The translations under genes and the position numbers were made by a program. A model generated the notes under the pieces. The model was not told where the DNA came from, searched no databases, and was given only the letters and a program-made list of their open reading frames with translations. Positions 9,538 to 19,452 of a DNA stretch of 42,136 nt are shown one piece after another. The DNA is taken from assembly GCA_020726085.1 (NCBI GenBank), contig DYTG01000002.1:1-42136 (forward strand), written 5' to 3'. The stretch's first letter is position 1. Every line of letters starts with the position of its first letter. The DNA comes from Sulfurovum sp. (GTDB taxonomy: Bacteria > Campylobacterota > Campylobacteria > Campylobacterales > Sulfurovaceae).

Positions 9538-10134
9538 ATGTTAGTGACAAAAAAAGCTCCAGATTTTACAGCAACCGCCGTATTGGCAAACGGTTCAATT
9601 GTAGAGAATTTTAATCTTTATGAAAATTTAGGCTCAAAGGGTGCGGTGCTCTTCTTCTATCCACTTGATTTTACTTTTGTATGCCCATCTGAAATTATTG
9701 CCTTTTCGCACAGAATTGAAGAGTTTGAATCAAGAGGTGTCAATGTTATTGGTTGTTCGGTTGATTCTCAATTTAGCCACTTTGCATGGAGAGAGACTCC
9801 TGTAGAAAAAGGCGGGATTGGCAAAATCAAATATCCACTTGTAGCCGATTTGAACAAACAAATCTCAAGAGATTACGATGTGCTTTTTGGTGAGTCTGTA
9901 GCCCTTAGAGGAAGCTTTTTGATTGATGCTGATGGTACTATTCGACACGCTGTAATCAATGATTTGCCACTAGGAAGAAACATCGATGAGATGATTAGAA
10001 TGGTTGATGCAATGCAATTTACCAACGAACACGGTGAAGTATGTGCTGCAGGTTGGCAAAAAGGCGATGAGGGCATGAAAGCCTCAACAGAGGGCGTAGC
10101 GGAGTATCTTGCTAAACACGAAAAAGATCTGTAA
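9538..10134 (+). CDS. ahpC: typical 2-Cys peroxiredoxin (alkyl hydroperoxide reductase C / TsaA)
   Basis: 198-aa ORF with the peroxidatic Cys motif FYPLDFTFVCPSEI and the resolving Cys in GEVCAAGW. Confidence 0.93.
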   Translation: MLVTKKAPDFTATAVLANGSIVENFNLYENLGSKGAVLFFYPLDFTFVCPSEIIAFSHRIEEFESRGVNVIGCSVDSQFSHFAWRETPVEKGGIGKIKYPLVADLNKQISRDYDVLFGESVALRGSFLIDADGTIRHAVINDLPLGRNIDEMIRMVDAMQFTNEHGEVCAAGWQKGDEGMKASTEGVAEYLAKHEKDL

Positions 10135-10145
10135 GATAGATTGCT

Positions 10146-10175
10146 TTTCCAATGCACACAACTTTGCATTGGAAA
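10146..10175 (+). promoter_or_regulatory. 11-bp-stem inverted repeat between ahpC and the Fur-family gene
   Basis: TTTCCAATGCA (10146-10156) pairs with TGCATTGGAAA (10165-10175) across an 8-nt loop. There is no downstream T-run. It ends 12 nt before the regulator ATG, next to its GGGAGA RBS. Confidence 0.4.
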
Positions 10176-10187
10176 GTGGGAGAAACA

Positions 10188-10601
10188 ATGAAAGATTACG
10201 AAAGCCTACTTAAGACACATGGACTCAAAAGTACATTTCAACGAGTCAGTATCATAAAAGCCATTGATAAAGCAGGGCATATGAGCATTGATGATATTTA
10301 CAAAGAGATTGTTGTCTATCACTCCTCTATCTCGTTGGCTACGGTTTACAAAAATATATTAACAATGAAAGAACTGGGCTTGGTAGTCGAAGTTCCCATC
10401 GCCAATGCCAAATCCAAATATGAACTTATCAAAAACGACCATATTCACTTCATTTGTCAAAAATGCGGCAGTATTGAAGATAAACCAATCACCGCCAAAA
10501 TTCAACATTTTTTTGAAGAGTTGGTAGCTCAAGATGCGTTTAAACTTCTCTCTACTCAAAACAATCTCTACGGAATATGTCACCGTTGTCATACTTCCTA
10601 G
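10188..10601 (+). CDS. Fur-family transcriptional regulator (PerR-like by context)
   Basis: I chose the ATG at 10188 after a GGGAGA RBS. It has a winged-helix N-terminus (TFQRVSIIKAI...HMSIDDIY...ISLATVYKNI) and a C-terminal Zn site (CQKCG...CHRCH). It lies immediately downstream of ahpC. Confidence 0.8.
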   Translation: MKDYESLLKTHGLKSTFQRVSIIKAIDKAGHMSIDDIYKEIVVYHSSISLATVYKNILTMKELGLVVEVPIANAKSKYELIKNDHIHFICQKCGSIEDKPITAKIQHFFEELVAQDAFKLLSTQNNLYGICHRCHTS

Positions 10602-10614
10602 ACTTCTTCTTGCT

Positions 10615-13197
10615 TTAATAAAACTCCAATGGATTGTACTCTATATAGGTTGGTAGCGAATAGTTTGGCACATTGTCGTAACTAAATACCGAGTAGTACT
10701 TTCTTTTGTCAAGTGAGCCAAAATTGTCGTAGGTATAGGTATCTTTTCCTCCGTAAATTTTCACTCCATCGGAGAAGTTTTTAGGTACATGAAAGCTGTT
10801 GCGTACGACATAATAGCCTACTAAATCGTTGTGTTCAACTTCGTCCCATGTGAGCTTCACTAAGCCATTGACTTTGGTAATTTTGACATTTTGCACGGGG
10901 TCAAGAGGTTTTCGTCTTCGGTTGATATATTTGAGTTGAAGCTCTACATGGTTGTCCCATTTGAGTATTCTATCTTTTATTTTGTTATCGGGCGAAGTGG
11001 CTTTGATGGCAAGTTTGAGCGTTTTACCCTCTTTGTGTAGATTGCTTAGTGTCATTTTGGAGAGCGTATCAAATATAAAGTAGTTATCGTTTTTGAGAGT
11101 CAAATCACTTTCGGCTACCTCATAACCGATATACTCAATCTTATCACGATGCCTAATATCATCATAACTTGTGACACTATCAACCTCAATAAGCTCGACA
11201 TAGTAGCGTGTATCTCGATTTTTTTTGAAGCTGTTTTTGTTTTTGATTTTCAAAATAGCCGAGGTAATGATATGGGTCTCATACTGGGGCATAGCATCAA
11301 GATTGAACTCCATATAGCCATAAACCCTATCGCTATTGGCATCAAAACCACTCGTAAGAGATTCTGCAATCCCCTCTTTGGATATGCTAAGCATTCGATT
11401 GGGCGTTAGGGCAATACGACTCTCTTGAATGGTGTATTTAATATCAAGCATCGGACGATAGTGAATCCCTCCACCAAAGCGACCGTACCCCATATCAAAT
11501 TGCATGATTTGCGAATCCTCTCCATCGGGCAAAGTTTTGGGGCCATCGATGCGAAAATGTACCTTTTTTTTGGCAATTTGGGCTTGAAGCAGTTGGCATT
11601 CATGTTTGGAAAACTGCCAAACGTTCCAAATCCCTTGGGTGAGATTGTGTGATTCAATGGCATTTCCTACCGTGCCTGTCACTTTGGCGTGAATTACTTC
11701 ATCGTAATCTGTAATCTCCCCAAAGCTTTCGCTATCCAAAATAGAGGCATTCCACTCTCCGTATTTTTCTATTTTAGCACCCACACGATTCATAGGATAG
11801 AGATAGAGCTTAGCCGATTTGATGGTGGCGTGGTTGGATGGAATAGTATCCAAACCAAAACTAATCACGCTACAACATATCCCTTTGGCATGGCTAATAC
11901 CCGCAAAGAGTGAATTTTCACCAAAATGGGAACGATTTTGCTCTTTTGAATTCTCACCCAAATAGCCCGTTTCGCTCTTAGAAGCAAAGATAATCTTATA
12001 AAACTCATCATTTTCCAACCTCGTACGCACTTTGACGACGGGTGCAAAAGGGGATTTGTAACCGCTCTTTTTATTGACTGCACGTAGGGTATAAAAGTAG
12101 GGTGTAGCAGAGTTGAGATTGGAATCCTCATAATGTTTTTCGCCTACAATAGCGATACAAGTACGCTCATTGCACGCATCTTTGTCTTGTGTGCTTCGAT
12201 AGATTTCAAAATAAATGCCGTCTCGAATCTCGTAATCCCACGCAAGTGAGACACCGTTGAAAGTAACGTTATCAATTGTGAAATTATCCACTCGCTTGGG
12301 TGCATTGTGCGAATAGTTAATGACCTCTGAAAATACCATTTTAAGAGCTGGGATATTCTCTTTGATAGAGGAACTCATGCTTTTCATATAGTCTGGAATA
12401 TTTTTCGTACCCACCTCTACGACGGTTGCAATAATGCCTTTGGAGTAGTAGTACTCTCTCCCGCTTCCCGAAATAAGTGCTGCGGGCGGTTTGCCTCGAT
12501 GAATGCCATATCGTCGTCCTGTCACTTTGTGTATCTCGTCGTTCATATTGGCACACAAAACATTCATATCGGTTCCATCAATTTCGGCTTCATGTTTGAA
12601 TTTGTGTGCGGGAAAAAAGACGTTGCCTTGCGAGTGGTAATCAAAGGCGATAGTGATATTGGGATGAGTATCAACAAAGGCTTTGATAGCTTGGGTTTCG
12701 GCTTCTGAAAAAGGATGCTCTCCGCCGTAAACATTGGAGCTAGTACTGCTCTCTTTTTTGAATCCTATAGAGAAGTTGCGATTGAGATCAACTCCAATAG
12801 TGCCGTCGTGATTGGGGCGGCGGTTTTTACGCCAAAAAGAGAAGTGCTTCCTTGAGTACTCGTATCCATCAGGATTGAGACAAGGCACCATATAAATAGT
12901 GGCCTCATCAAGAGATTTTTCAAGTACGGGGTCAATGTGTTGATTTTTGGCGACAAATAACATAAAATCAAGGGCTAATTCATTGCCAATCCACTCTCTA
13001 GCGTGAATGCTTCCTGTGTAGAGCATGGCGGGTTTGGTATCGGCTTTGGAGACATTTTGAGACATTTTTGCTAAAACAATGTCTCTTTTTTCGTACGTTT
13101 GACCAATTTTGATGATTTCAATGAGATTGGGGTAGTTTTTTTGTAGATTGTAAAGCGTCTCTAGGCTCTCTTGATAGGAACGGTATTGATTTTTCAT
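10615..13197 (-). CDS. large cytoplasmic M14-family zinc carboxypeptidase with FN3-like modules
   Basis: 860-aa ORF. The N-terminal M14 domain has YTGSIHAREWIGNE, NPDGYEYS and DYHSQGNVFFP. FN3-like segments occur around residues 300-395 (VDNFTIDNVTFNGVSLAWDY...YFYTLRAVN) and 765-860 (VQNVKITKVNGLVKLTWDEV...YYSVFSYDN). There is no hydrophobic signal sequence at the N-terminus. Confidence 0.85.
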   Translation of the reverse strand: MKNQYRSYQESLETLYNLQKNYPNLIEIIKIGQTYEKRDIVLAKMSQNVSKADTKPAMLYTGSIHAREWIGNELALDFMLFVAKNQHIDPVLEKSLDEATIYMVPCLNPDGYEYSRKHFSFWRKNRRPNHDGTIGVDLNRNFSIGFKKESSTSSNVYGGEHPFSEAETQAIKAFVDTHPNITIAFDYHSQGNVFFPAHKFKHEAEIDGTDMNVLCANMNDEIHKVTGRRYGIHRGKPPAALISGSGREYYYSKGIIATVVEVGTKNIPDYMKSMSSSIKENIPALKMVFSEVINYSHNAPKRVDNFTIDNVTFNGVSLAWDYEIRDGIYFEIYRSTQDKDACNERTCIAIVGEKHYEDSNLNSATPYFYTLRAVNKKSGYKSPFAPVVKVRTRLENDEFYKIIFASKSETGYLGENSKEQNRSHFGENSLFAGISHAKGICCSVISFGLDTIPSNHATIKSAKLYLYPMNRVGAKIEKYGEWNASILDSESFGEITDYDEVIHAKVTGTVGNAIESHNLTQGIWNVWQFSKHECQLLQAQIAKKKVHFRIDGPKTLPDGEDSQIMQFDMGYGRFGGGIHYRPMLDIKYTIQESRIALTPNRMLSISKEGIAESLTSGFDANSDRVYGYMEFNLDAMPQYETHIITSAILKIKNKNSFKKNRDTRYYVELIEVDSVTSYDDIRHRDKIEYIGYEVAESDLTLKNDNYFIFDTLSKMTLSNLHKEGKTLKLAIKATSPDNKIKDRILKWDNHVELQLKYINRRRKPLDPVQNVKITKVNGLVKLTWDEVEHNDLVGYYVVRNSFHVPKNFSDGVKIYGGKDTYTYDNFGSLDKRKYYSVFSYDNVPNYSLPTYIEYNPLEFY

Positions 13198-13227
13198 TTT
13201 AATGTCCCATTTGTAAGTTTTGTGCGA

Positions 13228-13236
13228 ATTTTAACA
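13228..13236 (-). promoter_or_regulatory. candidate extended -10 promoter of the M14 gene (TGtTAAAAT on minus strand), part of the shared 15-mer
   Basis: The minus strand reads TGTTAAAATTCGCACAAA, 22-39 nt upstream of the M14 ATG. The 15-mer TTTGTGCGAATTTTA (13219-13233) recurs at 15814-15828. Confidence 0.4.
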
Positions 13237-13393
13237 TATAGAAGATTACATTCAAGTGATTTTGAGCATCTGCGATGCAAATTGAGACTCAGGCAAGATA
13301 TTTTTTCTCTTTTGAAAGCGACGGTATTGCTTCGTATCTTGGAGGAGGTCAAAGCCTCATCTCCTGTTGGTTATAAAATTATGGTATCTTCCC

Positions 13394-14818
13394 TTATTCA
13401 AGTTGGCTTTTGAACTTTTGCCAATTTTTATTGAGTTTTTCTGCCGTCTTGTCGTTAAACCATCTGAAGTTCTCTTCGAGGGCTTGGCACTTATCTTCCA
13501 AATCTTCAATAAGTTCTATCATGGAGAATTTTTCATTGATTTTTGCAAGTTTTTTATTACCAATTCCTTTGATTTCAAGCAACATGGCGTTGATTTTATC
13601 TTCTGTGATAGTAATCTCCTCATCCTCAACCTCTTGGGTTTCATCATAAGCTACGGCATCGGCAAGTGTAATGGGTACTTTCATTGTATCTTTGTAGTTG
13701 TCTTGAAAATTCCACTTGCGACTTGGCCACTCTTCAAACTCTCTATCGGTAGTGACAAGCATAGGAAAGAGTTTATCAAGATGATGGAGATAAAACTCCC
13801 CGCCCTCTGAATCGATACGCTTTTGATTCATAAAAAACTCCGCATCGTAGCTAGGGTTGTAGCGTCCAAAGGTGATGTATCGCAATGTACGTAATATGGA
13901 GCTATCCATCTTACCCAACTCCTCCCAGTTATACATCGGTATGTGAGGAAGCGGGAAGAGACCGTTGCTAAATTTGTGCATCAAATATTGTCCTATCCAA
14001 TCTCGAATATAAGGAAACGCCGCAAATGCCGTGGCACACTCTAATATTCTATACTTGCCATCTTTACCTACGGCTATATCACATGCCCAATACTCAGCGT
14101 TGGCAGATTTGGAGACTTTGACGGCTAAATCAAGCAGCTCTTTGGGTACTTTTTGATAATCCATCGTACCACCTTGAGAGGTATTAGTCAGCCATGCTCC
14201 CTCAGGCGGTCGTCGCCAAAAGGCACACACAGGTTTATGACCAATAAGCATCACCCGTACATCGGCATCCATGGGTACAAAATCTTGTATATAGATAGGA
14301 TAGTATTTTTTCTTGGCGAGTAAATCTTTGGCTTCAGCAATGGAATCGACTTTATGCACAAAGTAGCCTCCGTAGTTGGATGGACCGTAGCTTTTTTTGA
14401 TAATCTTTGGATAGCTTGTCGTCTCAATAAACTCATTGGCTTTGTTTCTATCGTAAAAGATATAGGTTTTGGGTACAGGAATGTCGTATTTCCATGCAAA
14501 ACGGGTTACGTTCTCTTTGGATTTGTTGGCAAATTGAGTATCAAGCGAGGGAATAAATTGCACATTGGGCAACTCTTTGGCAATCTCTCGAAAGGTCTCA
14601 TACGCCGTTGCGGGAATGTTGCCGACTAAAATATCAATTTTTTTGCGTTTGACTTCATTGATGAAGCGTTGTTTATCGTTTTTCCAGTGATAAACCACGC
14701 TCTCAATCTTATCTGGCCATCCTTGAAAGTTGGAATGGTCAAAAAATCTCAATACATAATCAAGGTATAAAAATCCTATTTTTGGCAGTTTGGATTTGGT
14801 TATTGCTTTTTGAGTCAC
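13394..14818 (-). CDS. ATP-grasp domain ligase with long acidic / HhH-like C-terminal extension
   Basis: 474-aa ORF. The ATP-grasp core resembles the RimK/GSH-synthetase type (YPKIIKKSYGPSNYGGYFVHKV, YIQDFVPMDADVRVMLIG, WLTNTSQGGT, ILECATAFAAFPY). The C-terminal ~170 aa are acidic (ETQEVEDEEITITEDK) and contain a helix-hairpin-helix-like segment, LLEIKGIGNKKLAKI. Confidence 0.75.
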   Translation of the reverse strand: MTQKAITKSKLPKIGFLYLDYVLRFFDHSNFQGWPDKIESVVYHWKNDKQRFINEVKRKKIDILVGNIPATAYETFREIAKELPNVQFIPSLDTQFANKSKENVTRFAWKYDIPVPKTYIFYDRNKANEFIETTSYPKIIKKSYGPSNYGGYFVHKVDSIAEAKDLLAKKKYYPIYIQDFVPMDADVRVMLIGHKPVCAFWRRPPEGAWLTNTSQGGTMDYQKVPKELLDLAVKVSKSANAEYWACDIAVGKDGKYRILECATAFAAFPYIRDWIGQYLMHKFSNGLFPLPHIPMYNWEELGKMDSSILRTLRYITFGRYNPSYDAEFFMNQKRIDSEGGEFYLHHLDKLFPMLVTTDREFEEWPSRKWNFQDNYKDTMKVPITLADAVAYDETQEVEDEEITITEDKINAMLLEIKGIGNKKLAKINEKFSMIELIEDLEDKCQALEENFRWFNDKTAEKLNKNWQKFKSQLE

Positions 14819-14833
14819 GTCTTATTTCCTTTG

Positions 14834-15733
14834 TTATTTTTGTGTTTTTCTATCGATTAGCTCTACTATAGCGTCTATTTTTCTATCGTTAAAATCCAAT
14901 CCCATCTCCTCTTGAGCGGGGGTTGCAAAAGCGGGGATACCGTTTACCTCTAGTACTACATACTCTTGTTTTTCTTGGTCATAGATAATATCGACACCGC
15001 CAATATCAATCTTGCAAATTTCACACGCTTTTATAGCCAAATTGACCACTTCGTCATTAGGCTCTCTTAAAAATACGCTTCCACCGCTTGTGACATTGGT
15101 ACGCCAATCGCTACCCCCAGCTCTTCTACCGTAACATCCAATAAATTTGCCATCTACTATATCAACCCGAAAATCGGTTTTATCGTATTGGATAAATTTT
15201 TCAACATAAAAAAATCGCAAATCCATTTGATTAAGAAAAGGTATGAGCATATCAAGTGCTGATTCATCTTCGATTTTGGTAAGCCCTACCCCACCCCATC
15301 CATCGGTTGGTTTATAGATTATTTTGTCCCATTTTTTGATGATTTTTCTAAGCTTATCGCTATCATCACGGTGACACAATTTAAAATCAGCCGTCGCTAC
15401 ACCGTGATTTCTAAGCAAAAATGAGGTTTGGAACTTATCTTCCGTGAGTGCAAAGGCTTCATAAGAGTTAATCATAGGAATGACACGGTTGAGTGCTTGA
15501 TACAAAAAAACTTGGTATTGAGTCTGTTCACCCGCATTGTAGGAGAAAAAAAGATCCAGTTTATCAAGCTTGACATCATTGTGGATAATGTGACCGTTTT
15601 TGCCAATAGCATGTCTCAGATTAATATCCGTAATCGCCTTAATATCTCTCTCTTGTAATTTTTTAATAAGCTTCTCTTGAACCTTATCACCGCCACTATT
15701 TGAATAGATCCACATACCAATTTTGCGTGACAT
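14834..15733 (-). CDS. RimK-family alpha-L-glutamate ligase-like ATP-grasp enzyme
   Basis: 299-aa ORF with IIYKPTDGWGGVGL, FYVEKFI, DFRVDIVDGKFIGCYGRR, DWRTNVTSGG, GGVDIIYD and VLEVNGIPAF. It lies 15 nt upstream of the second ATP-grasp gene on the same strand. Confidence 0.85.
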   Translation of the reverse strand: MSRKIGMWIYSNSGGDKVQEKLIKKLQERDIKAITDINLRHAIGKNGHIIHNDVKLDKLDLFFSYNAGEQTQYQVFLYQALNRVIPMINSYEAFALTEDKFQTSFLLRNHGVATADFKLCHRDDSDKLRKIIKKWDKIIYKPTDGWGGVGLTKIEDESALDMLIPFLNQMDLRFFYVEKFIQYDKTDFRVDIVDGKFIGCYGRRAGGSDWRTNVTSGGSVFLREPNDEVVNLAIKACEICKIDIGGVDIIYDQEKQEYVVLEVNGIPAFATPAQEEMGLDFNDRKIDAIVELIDRKTQK

Positions 15734-15813
15734 ATATAACTCCTACTTGTAGTTAAAGGTTTTTGTTTCCTTTTTGTAATTATAGCTTTAAAGGTGTAAA
15801 ACTCTCGCTCTTC

Positions 15814-15831
15814 TTTGTGCGAATTTTACAC
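15814..15831 (-). promoter_or_regulatory. candidate -10 promoter of the ATP-grasp operon (TGTAAAAT on minus strand) with shared 15-mer and an 8-bp inverted repeat partner
   Basis: The minus strand reads GTGTAAAATTCGCACAAAG. The 15-mer is identical to 13219-13233. GTGTAAAA (15794-15801) and TTTTACAC (15824-15831) form an inverted repeat with a 22-nt spacer. Confidence 0.4.
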
Positions 15832-15870
15832 TTTTTGGCTATAAATTAGCATAGCCTATAGTTATCAAAA

Positions 15871-15879
15871 TGTTATAAT
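15871..15879 (+). promoter_or_regulatory. candidate extended -10 promoter (TGtTATAAT) of the M20 peptidase gene
   Basis: TGTTATAAT lies 60 nt upstream of the ATG at 15940, in the divergent intergenic region. Confidence 0.35.
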
Positions 15880-15939
15880 CATTTCACATCATTTTTAGAG
15901 TAAAATAGCATTATTATTTTATTACAAAGGTGGTTTAAA

Positions 15940-17049
15940 ATGCAAAGGTTCGATTATACAAAATTGTCACAATTGATTGAGATTAACTCATGGACAAAAA
16001 ACAAAGTAGGGGTTGATCAAAACGGCACGATTATGGTTACATGGATGGAGTCGCTGGGGTTTGAAGTAGCACGTCACGCAAGAGAGGAGATTGGCGACCA
16101 TCTCCATTTTGTTTCACCCTCCAAAGAGGGCAAACGGTTGTTGCTTTTGGGGCATTTGGATACGGTTTTCCCACCTCAAAGCTTTGAAGGTTTTAGAGAA
16201 GATGAAGCGTGGATTTACGGTCCAGGGGTGTGCGATATGAAAGGGGGCAACATGATAGCCTTTCATGCACTTGAAAATTTGCATCATGAATTGGGAAGTC
16301 TTTACAATATCGATATGTTGCTTGTAAGCGATGAGGAGACGGGAAGCGACGATAGCAAACATCTCACAAGAGCGTTAGCCTCACGCTACGACTACTGCAT
16401 GGTCTTTGAGGCAGCGGGTATCCATGGGGAGGTAGTGGAAGCACGCAAAGGCGTAGGGACATTTTTTATTGATATTACAGGCAAAGCCGCACACGCAGGC
16501 AATCACTACATCGATGGGATTGATGCCAATGCCGAAGCAGCCTTAAAACTGCTAGAACTTAAAAAACTAACCGATCTTGCAAAAAGCACAACCGTCAATG
16601 TGGGCAAAATCGAAGGGGGAATTGGGGCTAATACCATCTCTCCTAGTGCCAAACTCACTTTTGAGCTTCGCTACACCTCTACCGATGAGCGTGATAGGGT
16701 ATTGCAACGGATAGACAAAATTGTAGCTACCTCTTACATAGAAGGGAGTGTTGCAACGCTAAGCGGAGGCATACAACGAGATGTCATGGAACCCAGCGAC
16801 AAACAAAGAGGATTTATTGCCAAAATCAATGAGCTTTGCAATATCAATTTACCAACAGAGAGAAGAGGCGGCGTAAGCGATGCCAATATCATCTCTTCCA
16901 GCGGTGTAGCCACACTCGATGGTTGGGGGCCTTTTGGCGATGGTGACCACACGATACACGAAAGAGCCTCAAAAGAGAGCTTTGATGAACGATTGCAATT
17001 GGTAACGGATATTTTACGACACTTTAGCCATGGAGCCTTTGAGCAATAA
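15940..17049 (+). CDS. M20-family metallopeptidase (carboxypeptidase G2 / glutamate carboxypeptidase-like)
   Basis: 369-aa ORF with LLLLGHLDTVFP, GPGVCDMKGG, LLVSDEETGS and a dimerisation lid region. There is no signal peptide. It is divergent from the ATP-grasp operon. Confidence 0.8.
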   Translation: MQRFDYTKLSQLIEINSWTKNKVGVDQNGTIMVTWMESLGFEVARHAREEIGDHLHFVSPSKEGKRLLLLGHLDTVFPPQSFEGFREDEAWIYGPGVCDMKGGNMIAFHALENLHHELGSLYNIDMLLVSDEETGSDDSKHLTRALASRYDYCMVFEAAGIHGEVVEARKGVGTFFIDITGKAAHAGNHYIDGIDANAEAALKLLELKKLTDLAKSTTVNVGKIEGGIGANTISPSAKLTFELRYTSTDERDRVLQRIDKIVATSYIEGSVATLSGGIQRDVMEPSDKQRGFIAKINELCNINLPTERRGGVSDANIISSSGVATLDGWGPFGDGDHTIHERASKESFDERLQLVTDILRHFSHGAFEQ

Positions 17050-18210: not shown

Positions 18211-18750
18211 TTAAAATAGCTCTCTTTGTAAATACGATTTGGTCTCCAAATCTTTGATCCAGATTGCTCCTTGGGATAGCTCATTTTCGCCTATGACGGC
18301 ACAATAACGAGCATTTATTTTATCGGCATTTTTAAGGTGGGCTTTGAGCGATTTTGCTTCGTATTCTATCTCTACTTTGATAGTTTGTCTCTTTTGGGAG
18401 GCTATAGCAAAGAGTTTATCCATAATATTTTCTTGTACCATCGAACCCAAATAGATACCCTCTCCTTGAGATTGTGGCATTTTTACCAAATCCAAAATAC
18501 GCTCAATCCCTGGTGCGAAACCAACAGCAGGTACGCTTTTGCCATCCAAAAACTCTACCAATCTATCGTATCGCCCACCCCCTGTGATAGCCGATTGAGA
18601 GCTAATCTTATTGCTAACAAACTCAAAAGCACTCTTGTTGTAGTAATCAAGCCCTCGTACCAAATGGGTATCATTGAGAAGTTTTTTGAGTATTTCAAAA
18701 TCGCTATCGCAATTTGGACATAAGTTGTGTGTAAGTTTGGGAGAGTGCAT
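18211..18750 (-). pseudogene. hisS: 3' half of histidyl-tRNA synthetase gene (motif 3 + anticodon-binding domain only)
   Basis: The 179-aa ORF begins in the insertion domain ([16 protein letters not shown]). It then runs through [23 protein letters not shown] and [10 protein letters not shown] into the anticodon-binding domain (IYLGS...[27 protein letters not shown]). An in-frame TAA lies 4 codons upstream of the first ATG. The ~220 N-terminal residues (motifs 1 and 2) are absent, and the upstream DNA is unrelated. Confidence 0.7.
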
Positions 18751-18782
18751 TAAGAGAGTTTAACAATGCTCATTTTTGCAAT

Positions 18783-18875
18783 CTAGCACTCAGATAGGAT
18801 TGGTTTCTGCACGGCGGTTGCAATCTTCGCATAGCGTATCGTGGGGTGGAAAACTATATCTTTCATAATAGTCAT
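18783..18875 (-). pseudogene. possible truncated RelE/ParE-like toxin remnant (30 codons)
   Basis: The ATG overlaps the downstream TGA of the upstream small ORF (ATGA). It translates as MTIMKDIVFHPTIRYAKIATAVQKPILSEC and then stops. The IVFHP start resembles toxin N-termini, but the length is about one third of a normal toxin. Confidence 0.25.
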
Positions 18876-18928
18876 CGAGTGATACCCAACTCTTCTTTAA
18901 AAAACCTATCCATTTGCTTCTCGTACTC

Positions 18929-19153
18929 CTATTGGGTGAGAAATTCCCCCTCTTCGATACGCTTCTCTGCTTCATAAACCCGTCTTCGTACCTCTTCGAT
19001 ACTGCTTACTACTGCACTTTGGGGGGGGTAGTAGTTTTCGTAGTCGTACTCATCTTCAATGACCTCAATTTTATGCTCTTTGCTTAAATTGGCTATGATA
19101 GCTTGAAATTGAGCCAAAAAGCTATCTTCAATCCGTAAATTTATCGTTTGCAT
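18929..19153 (-). CDS. small acidic antitoxin-like protein; the in-frame TAG is followed by 18 more in-frame codons, so it is possibly a pseudogene
   Basis: A strong AAGGAGA RBS lies 5 nt before the ATG at 19153. It translates as MQTINLRIEDSFLAQF...EEGEFLTQ, then TAG, then in-frame EYEKQMDRFFKEELGITR ending at TGA 18872-18874. A C8 tract (G8 on the plus strand, 19021-19028) sits inside the ORF. Confidence 0.4.
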   Translation of the reverse strand: MQTINLRIEDSFLAQFQAIIANLSKEHKIEVIEDEYDYENYYPPQSAVVSSIEEVRRRVYEAEKRIEEGEFLTQ

Positions 19154-19185
19154 TGTTTTCTCCTTTGTGGTATTGTAGCCCATCT

Positions 19186-19452
19186 CTAGCAATCATCCAA
19201 AGCAATGGCGGGGCTAAAGTAGGGGTTGCTTAGTTGAAATTTGCTTAGTATTCGACTGTAGAGTACGCTGTTGCCAAAGAGATTGCCCATCATGATAAAG
19301 TGCGAGATAGTGAATTTGGTTTTGAGTTGATGGCAGATACCTATTGTCATATCTCCCAACGCCTCAAAAATAGAGTAGGCAAGGTAGTGTCTCTCAACAC
19401 CTGCAAGTCTAAAGCTCACAATAGAACCCAAAAAATTGGCATAATCAAAATC
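19186..19452 (-). pseudogene. C-terminal fragment of a hydrogenase-accessory (HydE / HypF-C-terminal-like) gene, tentative
   Basis: The reading frame is open from 19470 but has no credible start. Its C-terminus (MMGNLFGNSVLYSRILSKFQLSNPYFSPAIALDD) has the shape of the HypF/Kae1-like C-terminal segment (GGVFQN...PPNDGG). It lies downstream of the hydD remnant, as hydE does in hydABCDE operons. Confidence 0.3.

What the first reader, a model, noticed from the sequence alone, without database searches (positions are those of the whole stretch)
10615..17049. Cytoplasmic two-ligase / two-carboxypeptidase cluster: candidate reversible amino-acid tailing or peptide-polymer system
Four adjacent genes encode only peptide-bond-forming and C-terminal-trimming enzymes, and none has a signal peptide.
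- An 860-aa M14 zinc carboxypeptidase (HAREWIG, DYHSQGN). It is fused to two FN3-like modules and roughly 350 aa that I cannot assign.
- A 474-aa ATP-grasp ligase. Its ~170-aa acidic tail ends in a helix-hairpin-helix-like segment, LLEIKGIGNKKLAKI.
- A canonical 299-aa RimK-type ligase.
- A divergently transcribed M20 peptidase of the carboxypeptidase G2 / glutamate carboxypeptidase type.

RimK-family ligases add Glu tails to ribosomal protein S6 or to cofactors (F420, methanopterin derivatives). In eukaryotes, M14 cytosolic carboxypeptidases erase polyglutamate tails in the TTLL/CCP cycle.

Writers and erasers together at one locus, with a shared promoter motif (see next finding), suggest one of two things. 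It could be a reversible C-terminal tailing system, or a system that makes and degrades a small poly-amino-acid or peptide metabolite. No substrate gene is evident in the window. I do not recognise this four-gene arrangement as a characterised system.
Basis: partly seen in the sequence, partly recalled or inferred. Interest (0 to 1): 0.78.

Follow-up and report, generated by a model that had tools for sequence, protein, structure and literature searches.

The report
Conserved ligase–carboxypeptidase four-gene cassette
Four neighbouring genes (two RimK-type peptide ligases, one of them atypical, and two zinc carboxypeptidases) form a cytoplasmic cassette that travels as a unit among marine bacteria and most likely adds and removes chains of glutamate on a target that is still unknown.

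Summary
All four ORFs exist at the stated coordinates, belong to the stated families, and lack signal peptides or membrane segments.

The cassette is a real unit. It recurs in about 110 loci from Campylobacterota, marine Gammaproteobacteria and Magnetococcales, always with different flanking genes.
- Anchored on the second ligase: RimK-like gene adjacent in 62/62, M14 in 57/64, M20 in 35/38.
- 0 of 53 generic M14 loci carry any partner.
- One Magnetococcales MAG fuses M14 and M20 into a single protein.
- No fifth gene is conserved.

- The 299-aa ligase belongs to the RimK family but is not the S6 RimK orthologue.
- The 474-aa paralogue has E-C-A in place of the ATP-grasp E-x-N magnesium site (107/107 loci). 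It is missing from some cassettes, and its HhH tail is optional.
- The unassigned ~350 aa of M14 are two tandem DNRLRE-type β-sandwich domains.
- The M14 domain is CPA/CPT-like, not CCP- or Csd4-like. It carries a family-specific Arg at the S1' position 255, which predicts specificity for acidic residues.

My best reading is a writer/eraser cycle for α-linked glutamate chains, analogous to Pseudomonas RimABK but using metallocarboxypeptidases. The chemistry and the acceptor are inferred, not shown.

The parts
14834..15733 (-). RimK-family ATP-grasp ligase, 299 aa (first gene of the minus-strand unit). Predicted catalytic alpha-L-glutamate-type ligase.
   Evidence: Pfam RimK 66 bits. NCBIfam: MptN 146 bits, rimK_fam 135.9 bits (cutoff 143.4), S6 RimK equivalog only 44 bits. 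PDB: ArgX/RimK at ~3e-12. The E-V-N metal motif is kept in 91/91 loci. Adjacent to the 474-aa paralogue in 62/62 metagenome loci.
13949..14818 (-). Second ATP-grasp paralogue (474 aa), residues 1-290: pre-ATP-grasp plus ATP-grasp core, with E-C-A in place of E-x-N.
   Evidence: Pfam RimK 54 bits over residues 109-256. 27% identical to the 299-aa ligase. L-E-C-A in 107/107 loci. Residues 1-375 are about 79% identical across 20 homologues. Absent from cassettes L024 and L026.
13694..13948 (-). Residues 291-375 of the 474-aa protein: family-specific conserved extension of unknown function.
   Evidence: Many invariant columns, for example NWEELGKMD..LRTLR..FG and EEWPS..WN.QDN. Present in gammaproteobacterial orthologues too. 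No Pfam match.
13397..13693 (-). Residues 376-474 of the 474-aa protein: variable acidic linker (376-412) followed by a helix-hairpin-helix-type helical module (413-474). This tail is optional across lineages.
   Evidence: Weak PolX HhH hit, E 0.003. PF14520 precomputed in several homologues. G-I-G-K-K is conserved. AF2 pLDDT is 79-90 here only. The tail is absent in Magnetococcales and Halarcobacter and is replaced by DUF1643 in Cycloclasticus.
12313..13197 (-). M14 protein, residues 1-295: CPA/CPT-type zinc carboxypeptidase domain without propeptide or signal peptide. Arg247 sits at the S1' specificity position (CPA 255).
   Evidence: PF00246, 180 bits. CPA4/CPT at E 1e-28, with the alignment SGSGREYYY against SGSSIDWAY. 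H65, E68, R123, N139, R140, H188 and E261 are invariant. Among 67 M14 domains, Arg at this position is essentially confined to this family. Found in 86 loci.
12022..12300 (-). M14 protein, residues 300-392: FN3 domain.
   Evidence: Pfam fn3 in 14/15 family members, best E 2e-7. The profile hits FN3 structures.
10918..12006 (-). M14 protein, residues 398-760: two tandem homologous DNRLRE-type beta-sandwich domains (398-590 and 593-760).
   Evidence: NCBIfam NF033679, E 4e-11, two stretches. hhalign of the two halves: probability 97.6%, E 3.6e-12. Weak TGFb_propeptide and Disaggr_repeat hits. The AF2 model is beta-rich here, pLDDT 70-90 for 580-760.
10618..10905 (-). M14 protein, residues 765-860: C-terminal beta module (FN3-like, not proven).
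   Evidence: Conserved across the family. The same module occurs in tandem arrays in unrelated proteins of the representative library (P0257, P0286, P0336). The AF2 model is poor here.
15940..17049 (+). M20 dimeric zinc peptidase of the carboxypeptidase G2 type, 369 aa. Divergent here, co-directional or fused to M14 in other lineages.
   Evidence: Peptidase_M20 plus M20_dimer. PRK07338 216 bits, glutamate carboxypeptidase PRK06133 181 bits. CPG2 at E 1.6e-28, with the HxD, D, EE and E metal/catalytic motifs aligned. Present upstream in 35/38 loci. Fused to M14 in P0242/L003.
13220..13233 (+). Copy 1 of the 14-mer TTGTGCGAATTTTA, 23-36 nt upstream of the M14 start codon. Read on the gene's strand it begins TAAAAT, a -10-like hexamer.
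   Evidence: Exact match. Overlaps a promoter-like site at 13255-13228 on the minus strand that has a TG-extended -10.
15815..15828 (+). Copy 2 of the same 14-mer in the divergent intergenic region, 82-95 nt upstream of the RimK-like start. Same orientation relative to the minus-strand genes as copy 1.
   Evidence: Exact match. Two exact copies of a 14-mer in 42 kb are not expected by chance. Not conserved in other loci.

Best explanation
The four genes are one self-contained cytoplasmic module that builds chains of alpha-linked acidic residues, most likely L-glutamate, and takes them down again.

**Proposed roles**
- The 299-aa RimK-family enzyme is the ATP-dependent ligase.
- The 474-aa paralogue keeps the nucleotide- and substrate-binding motifs but has lost the Asn of the E-x-N magnesium site. 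It acts as an accessory, targeting or regulatory subunit, or as a second ligase with altered chemistry. In some lineages it carries an HhH or a DUF1643 tail.
- The 860-aa M14 enzyme is a propeptide-less CPA-type carboxypeptidase with Arg in the S1' pocket. It is held on its substrate by FN3 and tandem DNRLRE beta-sandwich modules and strips acidic residues one by one from the free C-terminus.
- The CPG2-type M20 enzyme removes the last residue(s) that a carboxypeptidase handles poorly.

**Acceptor.** The acceptor is not encoded in the module. I slightly prefer the reading that the cell makes free, self-primed oligo- or poly-alpha-glutamate from the glutamate pool and remobilises it completely to monomers, as a store or osmotic buffer of glutamate. 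Reversible tailing of a housekeeping protein is the close second.

**Shown:** gene content, co-conservation, the fusion, intact catalytic residues, the family-specific Arg, and cytoplasmic location.
**Inferred:** glutamate as the residue, alpha linkage, the division of labour, and the acceptor.
For: **Functional unit**
- The cassette is complete in 22 of 32 genome-derived loci, with different flanks, in Sulfurovum and other Campylobacterota, Photobacterium, Pseudoalteromonas, Paraglaciecola, Agarivorans, Veronia, Endozoicomonas, Cycloclasticus and Magnetococcales.
- With the 474-aa gene as anchor: RimK-like adjacent in 62/62, M14 in 57/64, M20 in 35/38.
- 0 of 53 generic M14 loci have any partner.
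- Divergences of the four proteins are correlated (rho 0.49-0.72).
- M14 and M20 are fused in a 1243-aa protein of a Magnetococcales MAG.
- The four genes are co-directional in L015, L019, L023, L025 and L027.

**Chemistry**
- The best family matches of the 299-aa ligase are all alpha-L-glutamate or aminoadipate ligases: MptN, rimK_fam, LysX, CofF.
- M14 has all the zinc, catalytic and carboxylate-binding residues, plus Arg at CPA position 255. That Arg is confined to this family among 67 M14 domains. Arg255 marks acidic specificity in CPO and the CCPs (PMC4230590).
- The nearest structure to M20 is the glutamate-releasing CPG2.

**Cytoplasmic location.** No signal peptide or TM segment in any of the four. 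N-termini are conserved across phyla.

**Free polymer preferred**
- No acceptor gene is conserved in any locus.
- An M20 'finisher' fused to M14 suggests degradation to monomers.
- RimK enzymes are known to make free poly-alpha-glutamate (PMC11957791).
- DNRLRE/CBM-like tandem modules are typical polymer-binding appendages (my own knowledge).
Against: - No experiment or direct computational test identifies the amino acid, the linkage or the acceptor.
- All NCBIfam equivalog scores are far below their cutoffs, so specificity cannot be transferred safely.
- The Arg255 assignment rests on sequence alignments in a divergent part of the domain. That part on its own finds no M14 structure, and the AF2 model is unusable there.
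- The family lacks the Tyr248 equivalent that 56 of 67 other M14 domains keep. The substrate's C-terminal geometry may therefore be unusual.
- Large accessory domains and an HhH tail fit a macromolecular (protein or nucleoprotein) target at least as well as a free polymer.
- Writers and erasers in one operon imply a futile cycle unless they are regulated, and no regulator is evident.
- The M14-M20 fusion is known from a single MAG contig.
Confidence: 0.4

Rival explanations
1. Reversible C-terminal polyglutamylation of a protein encoded elsewhere, either ribosomal protein S6 or another ribosome- or nucleoid-associated protein. The 299-aa ligase writes the tail. The 474-aa paralogue, with its HhH tail, targets the complex to a nucleic-acid-bound substrate. 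M14 erases the tail. This would be a metallopeptidase version of RimABK and a functional analogue of TTLL/CCP.
For: - RimK-family membership.
- Precedent of RimK/RimB acting on RpsF (PMC11957791, PMC7343187).
- Arg255 in M14.
- 570 aa of non-catalytic modules on M14 suggest docking on a macromolecule.
- The HhH module is kept in Campylobacterota, Photobacterium and Pseudoalteromonas.
- No acceptor gene lies in the module, which fits a housekeeping target.
Against: - The ligase is not orthologous to the S6 ligase (44 bits against a 331 cutoff).
- The HhH tail and even the whole 474-aa gene are dispensable in some lineages.
- A CPG2-type M20 enzyme has no obvious role in erasing a protein tail, yet it is as conserved as M14 and is fused to it.
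- The C-termini of S6 in carrier genomes could not be examined.
Confidence: 0.3
2. Glutamylation and de-glutamylation of a small molecule, such as a cofactor, a compatible solute or a signalling peptide (as with MptN/CofF on methanopterin/F420, or RIMKLA/B making N-acetyl-aspartyl-glutamate). M20 and M14 would act as the catabolic enzymes.
For: - The best single NCBIfam hit of the 299-aa ligase is MptN (146 bits).
- CPG2-type M20 enzymes act on N-acyl-glutamates (plus general knowledge).
- No acceptor protein gene is present.
Against: - No biosynthetic gene for any acceptor molecule and no transporter is co-conserved.
- An 860-aa multi-domain carboxypeptidase is oversized for a small-molecule substrate.
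- Scores are far below the equivalog cutoffs.
- The carriers share no obvious special cofactor.
Confidence: 0.12
3. Cell-wall peptide metabolism. M14 would act as a murein peptide carboxypeptidase or amidase (Csd4/Pgp1- or MpaA-like), M20 as a DapE-like enzyme, and the ATP-grasp proteins as Ddl-like ligases, together recycling or remodelling peptidoglycan stem peptides.
For: - All three enzyme superfamilies have peptidoglycan-related members.
- Campylobacterota use M14 enzymes for cell shape (PMC3310797, listed).
- DapE and Ddl models give weak hits.
Against: - No signal peptide.
- No Csd4, Pgp1 or MpaA structure appears among the 54 PDB hits, and the nearest are CPA4/CPT.
- Ddl models score 29-32 bits against cutoffs of ~245. 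DapE scores 92 against 284, while CPG2-type models score 181-217.
- The module is also present in Gammaproteobacteria without helical shape.
Confidence: 0.03
4. Amino-group-carrier-type biosynthesis (LysX/LysK-like). The ATP-grasp enzyme would attach an amino acid to a carrier's C-terminal glutamate, and the M20 enzyme would release the finished product.
For: - LysX/ArgX are among the closest solved structures of both ligases.
- LysK-type M20 models give weak hits (PRK04443, 41 bits).
Against: - No LysW-like carrier, kinase, reductase or aminotransferase gene is found in any locus.
- LysX scores 101 against a 276 cutoff.
- M14 has no place in that pathway.
Confidence: 0.04

Closest known systems
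RimABK of Pseudomonas fluorescens (RimK ligase, RimB retropepsin-like protease, RimA phosphodiesterase)
   Same: A RimK-family ATP-grasp ligase is co-transcribed with a dedicated peptidase that removes the glutamates it adds. Ligase-peptidase or peptidase-peptidase fusions occur. Distribution is patchy and looks horizontally transferred. The system also produces free poly-alpha-glutamate (PMC11957791, PMC7343187).
   Different: The erasers here are two zinc exopeptidases (M14 and M20), not an aspartic endopeptidase. There is a second, atypical ATP-grasp paralogue. There is no RimA or c-di-GMP component. The ligase is not the S6 RimK orthologue. The target is unknown.
Eukaryotic TTLL polyglutamylases and cytosolic carboxypeptidases (CCP, M14D)
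   Same: An ATP-grasp writer is paired with a cytosolic M14 eraser that has Arg at position 255 and accessory beta-sandwich domains (PMC4230590).
   Different: M14 here is CPA/CPT-like (M14A-type) by sequence. No bacterial CCP structure is among its PDB hits. The ligases belong to the RimK clade, not the TTL clade. The resemblance is one of function, not descent.
Carboxypeptidase O, the acidic-specific M14A enzyme without a propeptide
   Same: CPA-type fold, no prodomain, and a basic residue at position 255 that predicts acidic P1' preference (PMC6214572, listed).
   Different: CPO is an animal membrane-anchored digestive enzyme. The present protein is bacterial and cytoplasmic, lacks the Tyr248 equivalent, and carries 570 aa of FN3 and DNRLRE modules.
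Carboxypeptidase G2 (Pseudomonas sp. RS-16), M20
   Same: The closest solved structure (E 1.6e-28). It has the same two-domain dimeric architecture and aligned metal ligands, and it releases C-terminal glutamate.
   Different: CPG2 is periplasmic with a signal peptide and acts on folates. The present enzyme has no signal peptide and scores below the NCBIfam glutamate-carboxypeptidase cutoff (181 against 349).
MptN / CofF (archaeal cofactor alpha-L-glutamate ligases) and LysX/ArgX
   Same: These are the best-scoring characterised relatives of the 299-aa ligase. All ligate glutamate-like substrates at a terminal carboxylate.
   Different: Scores are far below the equivalog cutoffs. The carriers are bacteria with no known methanopterin or F420 link, and no LysW pathway genes are nearby.
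Cyanophycin synthetase / cyanophycinase
   Same: Conceptually the same: an ATP-grasp polymerase and a dedicated hydrolase (plus a dipeptidase) for a cytoplasmic poly-amino-acid store.
   Different: The CphA model scores 32 against 850. Cyanophycinase is a serine peptidase (S51). No Mur-ligase-like domain is present.

Membership tests
RimK, ribosomal protein S6--L-glutamate ligase (NCBIfam PRK10446 equivalog) | Whole-protein score at or above the curated cutoff (331 bits) | tested here: not met
   The 299-aa protein scores 44.2 bits and the 474-aa protein 16.6 bits.
RimK family alpha-L-glutamate ligases (TIGR00768 subfamily) | Score at or above the cutoff of 143.4 bits | tested here: inconclusive
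   The 299-aa protein scores 135.9 bits, just below the cutoff, with full-length coverage. The 474-aa protein scores 76.3 bits.
ATP-grasp ligases (catalytically competent) | Three-residue Mg2+ site: D ... E-x-N | tested here: met
   In the 299-aa ligase these are D248, E262 and N264. The E-V-N motif is kept in 91/91 loci.
ATP-grasp ligases (catalytically competent), 474-aa paralogue | Three-residue Mg2+ site: D ... E-x-N | tested here: not met
   D247 and E260 are present, but Asn is replaced by Ala (L-E-C-A) in 107/107 loci. The Lys, D-x-R, R, T-N and G-G motifs are kept.
RimABK system | Retropepsin-like RimB (and RimA) encoded next to the ligase | tested here: not met
   No such gene appears in the window or in any related locus. 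The only conserved neighbours are M14 and M20.
RimABK system | RpsF (S6) with a C-terminal Glu as the acceptor | not testable with these tools
S6 C-termini of carrier genomes were not examined.
M14 metallocarboxypeptidases | Pfam PF00246 above the gathering score, and the residues H69, E72, R127, N144, R145, H196, E270 (CPA numbering) | tested here: met
   180.1 bits against 21.6. H65, E68, R123, N139, R140, H188 and E261 are invariant in the family.
M14 metallocarboxypeptidases | Tyr248 (substrate carboxylate / P1 amide contact) | tested here: not met
   The aligned position is Ala or variable in this family, whereas 56 of 67 other M14 domains have Tyr.
Cytosolic carboxypeptidases (CCP, M14D) | Closest similarity to CCP-type domains, including the bacterial CCP structures | tested here: not met
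   The 54 PDB hits are CPA, CPB, CPT, CPO, CPD, CPN and CPM. No bacterial CCP entry is among them.
Cytosolic carboxypeptidases (CCP, M14D) / carboxypeptidase O | Basic residue (Arg) at S1' position 255 | tested here: met
   R247 aligns with CPA4 Ile255. Arg is present in 86 loci and is nearly confined to this family among 67 M14 domains. The alignment is by sequence only.
Csd4 / Pgp1 peptidoglycan LD-carboxypeptidases | Sec signal peptide with periplasmic location, and sequence similarity to Csd4/Pgp1 | tested here: not met
   The longest ORF has no signal peptide. No Csd4 or Pgp1 structure appears among the PDB hits. The protein is fused to the cytoplasmic M20 in L003.
M20 glutamate carboxypeptidase (CPG2 type; NCBIfam PRK06133) | M20 catalytic plus dimerisation domains with aligned metal ligands, and an equivalog score at or above the cutoff | tested here: inconclusive
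   The domains are present. The H, D, EE and E motifs align with CPG2 at E 1.6e-28. PRK06133 scores 180.8 against 349, and PRK07338 216.7 against 357.
LysW amino-group-carrier pathway (LysX/LysK) | LysW carrier and LysZ/Y/J genes nearby, and the LysX equivalog score | tested here: not met
   None of these genes is in any locus. LysX scores 100.7 against 275.6.
Cyanophycin synthetase | CphA equivalog score (850 bits) and a Mur-ligase-like second domain | tested here: not met
   31.8 bits, with no second domain.
Known anti-phage defence systems (PADLOC) | Any component model hit | tested here: not met
   No hits for any of the four proteins. No relative in viral contigs.

The most novel reading that the evidence does not exclude
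The cassette is a bacterial, horizontally mobile 'glutamylation code' module built from parts different from both RimABK and TTLL/CCP. A RimK-clade ligase and a pseudo-ligase adaptor (with an HhH or DUF1643 tail in some lineages) put poly-alpha-glutamate tails on a ribosome- or nucleoid-bound protein. A CPA-type carboxypeptidase that has independently acquired the Arg255 'acidic' pocket, coupled to an M20 enzyme, erases the tails. Alternatively, the same enzymes run a previously unrecognised cytoplasmic poly-alpha-glutamate store that marine bacteria use to buffer their glutamate and osmotic pool.
Probability: 0.3. Interest if true: 0.8.

Novelty: new variant of a known kind. Interest (0 to 1): 0.6.

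Why it matters
**What would be new.** Reversible polyglutamylation is a major regulatory modification in eukaryotes. In bacteria it is known from a single system, RimABK acting on ribosomal protein S6. Free poly-alpha-glutamate has only recently been seen as a RimK product. This cassette would be a second, mechanistically distinct bacterial writer/eraser set, or the first dedicated synthesis-and-mobilisation system for poly-alpha-glutamate.

**How widespread and testable it is.** It occurs in hydrothermal-vent Sulfurovum populations (more than 2,000 protein clusters in public data) and in cultivable marine Gammaproteobacteria such as Photobacterium, Pseudoalteromonas and Agarivorans, where it can be tested genetically.

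**Enzymology on offer.**
- A natural example of convergent evolution of acidic specificity in a CPA-type carboxypeptidase.
- A conserved ATP-grasp paralogue lacking a metal ligand.
- A new cytoplasmic role for DNRLRE/FN3 modules that are otherwise typical of secreted proteins.

Tried and rejected
- **Structure prediction.** AlphaFold2 models of M14 (pLDDT 59) and of the 474-aa ligase (pLDDT 52), built from shallow alignments, were too poor to use. Foldseek only re-found CPA/CPT and generic ATP-grasp folds, so the S1' pocket could not be checked structurally.
- **C-terminal half of the M14 domain alone.** Searching it against PDB sequences gave no M14 hit.
- **C-terminal 570 aa of M14.** A profile search against PDB gave only marginal FN3 hits.
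- **A fifth conserved gene (substrate, regulator or transporter).** All-against-all ORF clustering of 33 loci found only shadow ORFs and generic ABC/response-regulator paralogues.
- **Shared promoter motif.** It is real in this window but absent from equivalent positions elsewhere, so it is not part of the conserved system.
- **Other scans.**
  - No riboswitch or other Rfam family in the region.
  - No tRNA in the window.
  - No PADLOC hit.
  - No viral-contig relative.
  - Among plasmids, only a 2.1-Mb Photobacterium replicon, without annotation.
- **DUF1643.** The domain fused to the Cycloclasticus paralogue has no informative literature or structure.
- **Literature.** The 2009 amidoligase survey by Iyer et al., which might mention this neighbourhood, is not held in the library. 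Full-text searches for the gene combination found nothing.
- **Rejected on evidence:** Csd4/Pgp1 or MpaA-type murein peptidase, S6 RimK orthologue, LysW pathway, cyanophycin, defence system.

Full report
**1. What is in the window**

Region 10615-17049 holds four ORFs exactly as described:
- an 860-aa protein, 10615-13197 on the minus strand;
- a 474-aa protein, 13394-14818 on the minus strand;
- a 299-aa protein, 14834-15733 on the minus strand;
- a divergent 369-aa protein, 15940-17049 on the plus strand.

The 299- and 474-aa genes are 15 nt apart. A 196-nt spacer separates the 474-aa gene from the 860-aa gene, and 206 nt separate the divergent starts.

The flanks are unrelated housekeeping genes. 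On one side lie Hsp20, AhpC and a Fur-family regulator. On the other lie MlaD, a decayed hisS, HycI and RecO. Base composition is unremarkable.

By best protein matches the window comes from an uncultured Sulfurovum-like member of the Campylobacterales.

**2. The four proteins**

*The 860-aa M14 protein*
- Residues 1-295 are a Peptidase_M14 domain (180 bits).
- The closest solved structures are human CPA4 and Thermoactinomyces carboxypeptidase T (E about 1e-28). This is the M14A type. No bacterial CCP, Csd4/Pgp1 or MpaA structure is among the 54 hits.
- The profile match begins at residue 14 of the longest possible ORF, so there is room for neither a signal peptide nor a propeptide.
- The zinc ligands and catalytic or carboxylate-binding residues (H65, E68, R123, N139, R140, H188, E261) are invariant in the family.
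- In the HMMER alignment to CPA4 the segment ISGSGREYYYSKGI matches ASGSSIDWAYDNGI. This places Arg247 at CPA position 255 and a non-aromatic residue at Tyr248.
- I aligned 67 M14 domains from the 50%-identity representative library. Position 255 is D, T, I, V or L in generic members. It is Arg only in this family plus two others. Tyr248 is kept by 56 of the 67 domains but not by this family. The G-S-G-R-E-Y-Y motif is present in 86 related loci.
- Position 255 lies at the base of the S1' pocket. Arg there marks the acidic-specific carboxypeptidase O and the deglutamylating CCPs (PMC4230590). I therefore infer a preference for C-terminal Glu or Asp.
- This inference rests on sequence alignment only. 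The AlphaFold model was too poor in this part of the domain (pLDDT below 50 for residues 108-277).

*The rest of the 860-aa protein*
- It continues with an FN3 domain at residues 300-392 (14/15 family members hit Pfam fn3).
- Next come two tandem homologous beta-sandwich domains of the DNRLRE type, at 398-590 and 593-760 (NCBIfam NF033679, E 4e-11; hhalign between the two halves gives probability 97.6%, E 3.6e-12).
- Last is a C-terminal beta module that occurs as tandem repeats in other proteins.

*The 299-aa ligase*
- It is a RimK-family ATP-grasp enzyme. Its best matches are MptN (146 bits), rimK_fam (135.9 against a 143.4 cutoff), LysX (101) and CofF (58).
- The E. coli-type S6 ligase model gives only 44 bits against a cutoff of 331.
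- It keeps the D...E-x-N magnesium site.

*The 474-aa paralogue*
- It is 27% identical to the 299-aa ligase over the ATP-grasp core.
- It keeps the Lys, D-x-R-V, R, W-x-T-N and G-G motifs. In place of E-x-N it has L-E-C-A in all 107 loci examined.
- After the core come an 85-aa extension that is nearly invariant, a variable acidic linker, and a helical HhH-type module.

*The 369-aa M20 protein*
- It is an M20 peptidase with a dimerisation domain.
- Its nearest structure is carboxypeptidase G2 (E 1.6e-28), with the metal and catalytic motifs aligned.

*Location.* None of the four has a signal peptide or a membrane segment.

**3. Is it a unit?**

Yes. The 860-aa architecture is a narrow family. 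In a library of 1.8 billion representatives only three other full-length clusters exist below 50% identity. There are more than 2,000 90%-identity clusters, mostly from Sulfurovum-rich vent metagenomes.

*Neighbourhoods.* Loci fetched for members from Sulfurovum, a Sulfurimonas MAG, Cycloclasticus, Endozoicomonas and Magnetococcales all show the same four genes with different flanks.

*Genome scan.* A scan of one genome per species returned 27 full-length loci. These came from Sulfurovum, Halarcobacter, Poseidonibacter, Sulfurimonas sp. CS5, Hydrogenimonas, other Campylobacterota, Photobacterium, Veronia, Pseudoalteromonas, Paraglaciecola, Agarivorans and Magnetococcales. I searched them by tblastn with the four window proteins.
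- 22 of the 32 genome-derived loci have all four genes.
- Two (L024, L026) have M20-RimK-M14 without the 474-aa paralogue.
- Two (L006, L007) lack M20 nearby.
- One (L013) has a 5-kb insertion between the paralogue and M14.
- Most of the rest are truncated contigs. In L020 and L032 the available flanks carry no partner gene.
- M20 is divergent in most loci but co-directional in five.
- None of the 53 generic M14 loci from the same scan has any partner.

*Second anchor.* Using the 474-aa protein as anchor in metagenome contigs, the RimK-like gene is adjacent in 62/62, M14 follows in 57/64, and M20 precedes in 35/38 of the loci with enough sequence.

*Co-inheritance and fusion.*
- The divergences of the four proteins across loci are correlated (rho 0.49-0.72).
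- In one Magnetococcales MAG, M14 and M20 form a single 1243-aa protein followed by the two ligase genes. This is a Rosetta-stone link, though it is known from a single contig.

*No fifth component.*
- Clustering all ORFs of 33 loci found no fifth conserved gene.
- The cassette is not in the viral contigs.
- It is not a known defence system.
- It has no Rfam element.

**4. What varies**

- The tail of the 474-aa paralogue is optional. The HhH module is present in Campylobacterota, Photobacterium and Pseudoalteromonas. It is absent in Magnetococcales (349 aa), Halarcobacter and Endozoicomonas. In Cycloclasticus a DUF1643 domain takes its place (E 7e-38).
- The 14-mer TTGTGCGAATTTTA occurs exactly twice in the window. 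One copy lies 23-36 nt upstream of the M14 start and the other 82-95 nt upstream of the RimK-like start, both in the same orientation relative to those genes. Read on their strand it starts with a -10-like TAAAAT.
- This suggests that the two minus-strand transcription units share a promoter or operator in this organism. The motif is not found at equivalent positions in other loci.

**5. How it most likely works**

*Shown:*
- A cytoplasmic, co-inherited set made of one canonical RimK-family ligase, one atypical paralogue, one CPA-type carboxypeptidase with a family-specific Arg in the specificity pocket, and one CPG2-type M20 peptidase.
- No acceptor gene is encoded with them.

*Inferred:*
- The ligase adds alpha-linked glutamate, or another acidic residue, to a terminal carboxylate.
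- M14 strips such residues from the C-terminus while held on its substrate by its beta-sandwich modules.
- M20 removes the last residue(s).
- The 474-aa paralogue is an accessory or targeting subunit, or a ligase with altered chemistry.

I put about 0.65 on this general chemistry.

*The acceptor.* I slightly prefer free, self-primed oligo- or poly-alpha-glutamate that is made and then fully remobilised (0.4). Three points favour it:
- A dipeptidase-like M20 partner fused to M14 points to degradation to monomers.
- No acceptor gene exists in any locus.
- RimK enzymes are known to make free poly-alpha-glutamate (PMC11957791).

Reversible tailing of a housekeeping protein is close behind (0.3). 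It is favoured by the RimK/S6 precedent, the large docking modules on M14 and the HhH tail. Cofactor or small-molecule glutamylation (0.12), a LysW-type pathway (0.04) and murein-peptide metabolism (0.03) fit the data poorly.

**6. Comparison with known systems**

- The closest characterised system is RimABK of Pseudomonas. There a RimK ligase and a co-transcribed retropepsin-like RimB add and remove glutamates on RpsF and also yield free poly-alpha-glutamate (PMC7343187, PMC11957791).
- The present cassette works like that system in outline but is not a member of it. It has different peptidase families, an extra paralogue, no RimA or RimB, and a non-orthologous ligase.
- It resembles the eukaryotic TTLL/CCP cycle only functionally.

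I found no description of this gene combination in the searchable literature. The 2009 amidoligase survey that might mention it could not be read.

**7. Verdict**

Linkage, cytoplasmic location and a predicted acidic-residue eraser are supported. Glutamate, tailing and the acceptor remain inference. 'Two ligases' and the HhH tail need qualification.
- I rate it a new variant of a known kind (RimK-type writer/eraser), with moderately high interest. It is directly testable in cultivable marine carriers.

Noticed in passing
window 18211-18950 (- strand): hisS survives only as a decayed 3' remnant. A 179-aa ORF holds just the last part of the catalytic domain and the anticodon-binding domain. The frame just upstream still reads HisRS-like text (…LCEDC…NPI*VLDCKNEHC*…) but is interrupted by stop codons. 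No N-terminal half is present anywhere in the window. It is either a pseudogene or sequencing errors, and a functional copy must lie elsewhere.
   Followed up: partly
window 13220-13233 and 15815-15828: An exact 14-mer direct repeat, TTGTGCGAATTTTA, lies upstream of the M14 gene and upstream of the RimK-like gene, in the same orientation relative to both. On the genes' strand it starts with a -10-like TAAAAT. It is specific to this genome and is not found at equivalent positions in 32 related loci.
   Followed up: yes
L003:559-4290 (Magnetococcales MAG, GCA_015232395.1): A natural fusion of the M14-FN3-DNRLRE protein with the M20 peptidase gives one 1243-aa ORF. The gene order is rearranged to M14-M20, RimK-like, then a short 349-aa paralogue. 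Only one contig is known. A second Magnetococcales MAG (L023) has the genes unfused.
   Followed up: partly
L004:8146-9795 (Cycloclasticus MAG): Here the second ATP-grasp paralogue is 549 aa and carries a C-terminal DUF1643 domain (E 7e-38) where the Sulfurovum protein has the HhH module. DUF1643 is otherwise known from phages and SCC elements and has no assigned function.
   Followed up: partly
L024 and L026 (Campylobacterota MAG109; Sulfurimonas sp. CS5 chromosome): A three-gene variant of the cassette, M20-RimK-M14, all co-directional and without the 474-aa paralogue. This shows that the paralogue is not essential to the module.
   Followed up: partly
L013:2869-7862: A ~5-kb block encoding an MMPL transporter, a LolA-like protein and a TetR regulator is inserted between the 474-aa paralogue and M14 in one Campylobacterota MAG. 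In seven metagenome loci M14 is not adjacent at all, and unrelated genes such as MurJ and a Pal/TPR pair follow instead.
   Followed up: partly
L031:8001-10194 (Veronia nyctiphanis): The M14 gene matches the query in three separate pieces with overlapping or offset coordinates. This may indicate frameshifts, and so a pseudogene, in this strain.
   Followed up: no
window 9538-10601: A peroxiredoxin (AhpC) gene and a Fur-family (PerR-like) regulator gene lie directly next to the 3' end of the M14 gene, convergent with it. This adjacency is not conserved in other loci, so it is probably unrelated to the cassette.
   Followed up: partly
window 18929-19431 (- strand): Two small ORFs (87 and 81 aa) without Pfam matches sit between the hisS remnant and the hydrogenase maturation protease gene. 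They may be related to whatever event disrupted hisS.
   Followed up: no
L016, L017, L018, L003 (Photobacterium, Paraglaciecola, Magnetococcales): Response-regulator genes lie next to the cassette in several gammaproteobacterial and Magnetococcales loci. They do not form one orthologous group and may be coincidental.
   Followed up: partly
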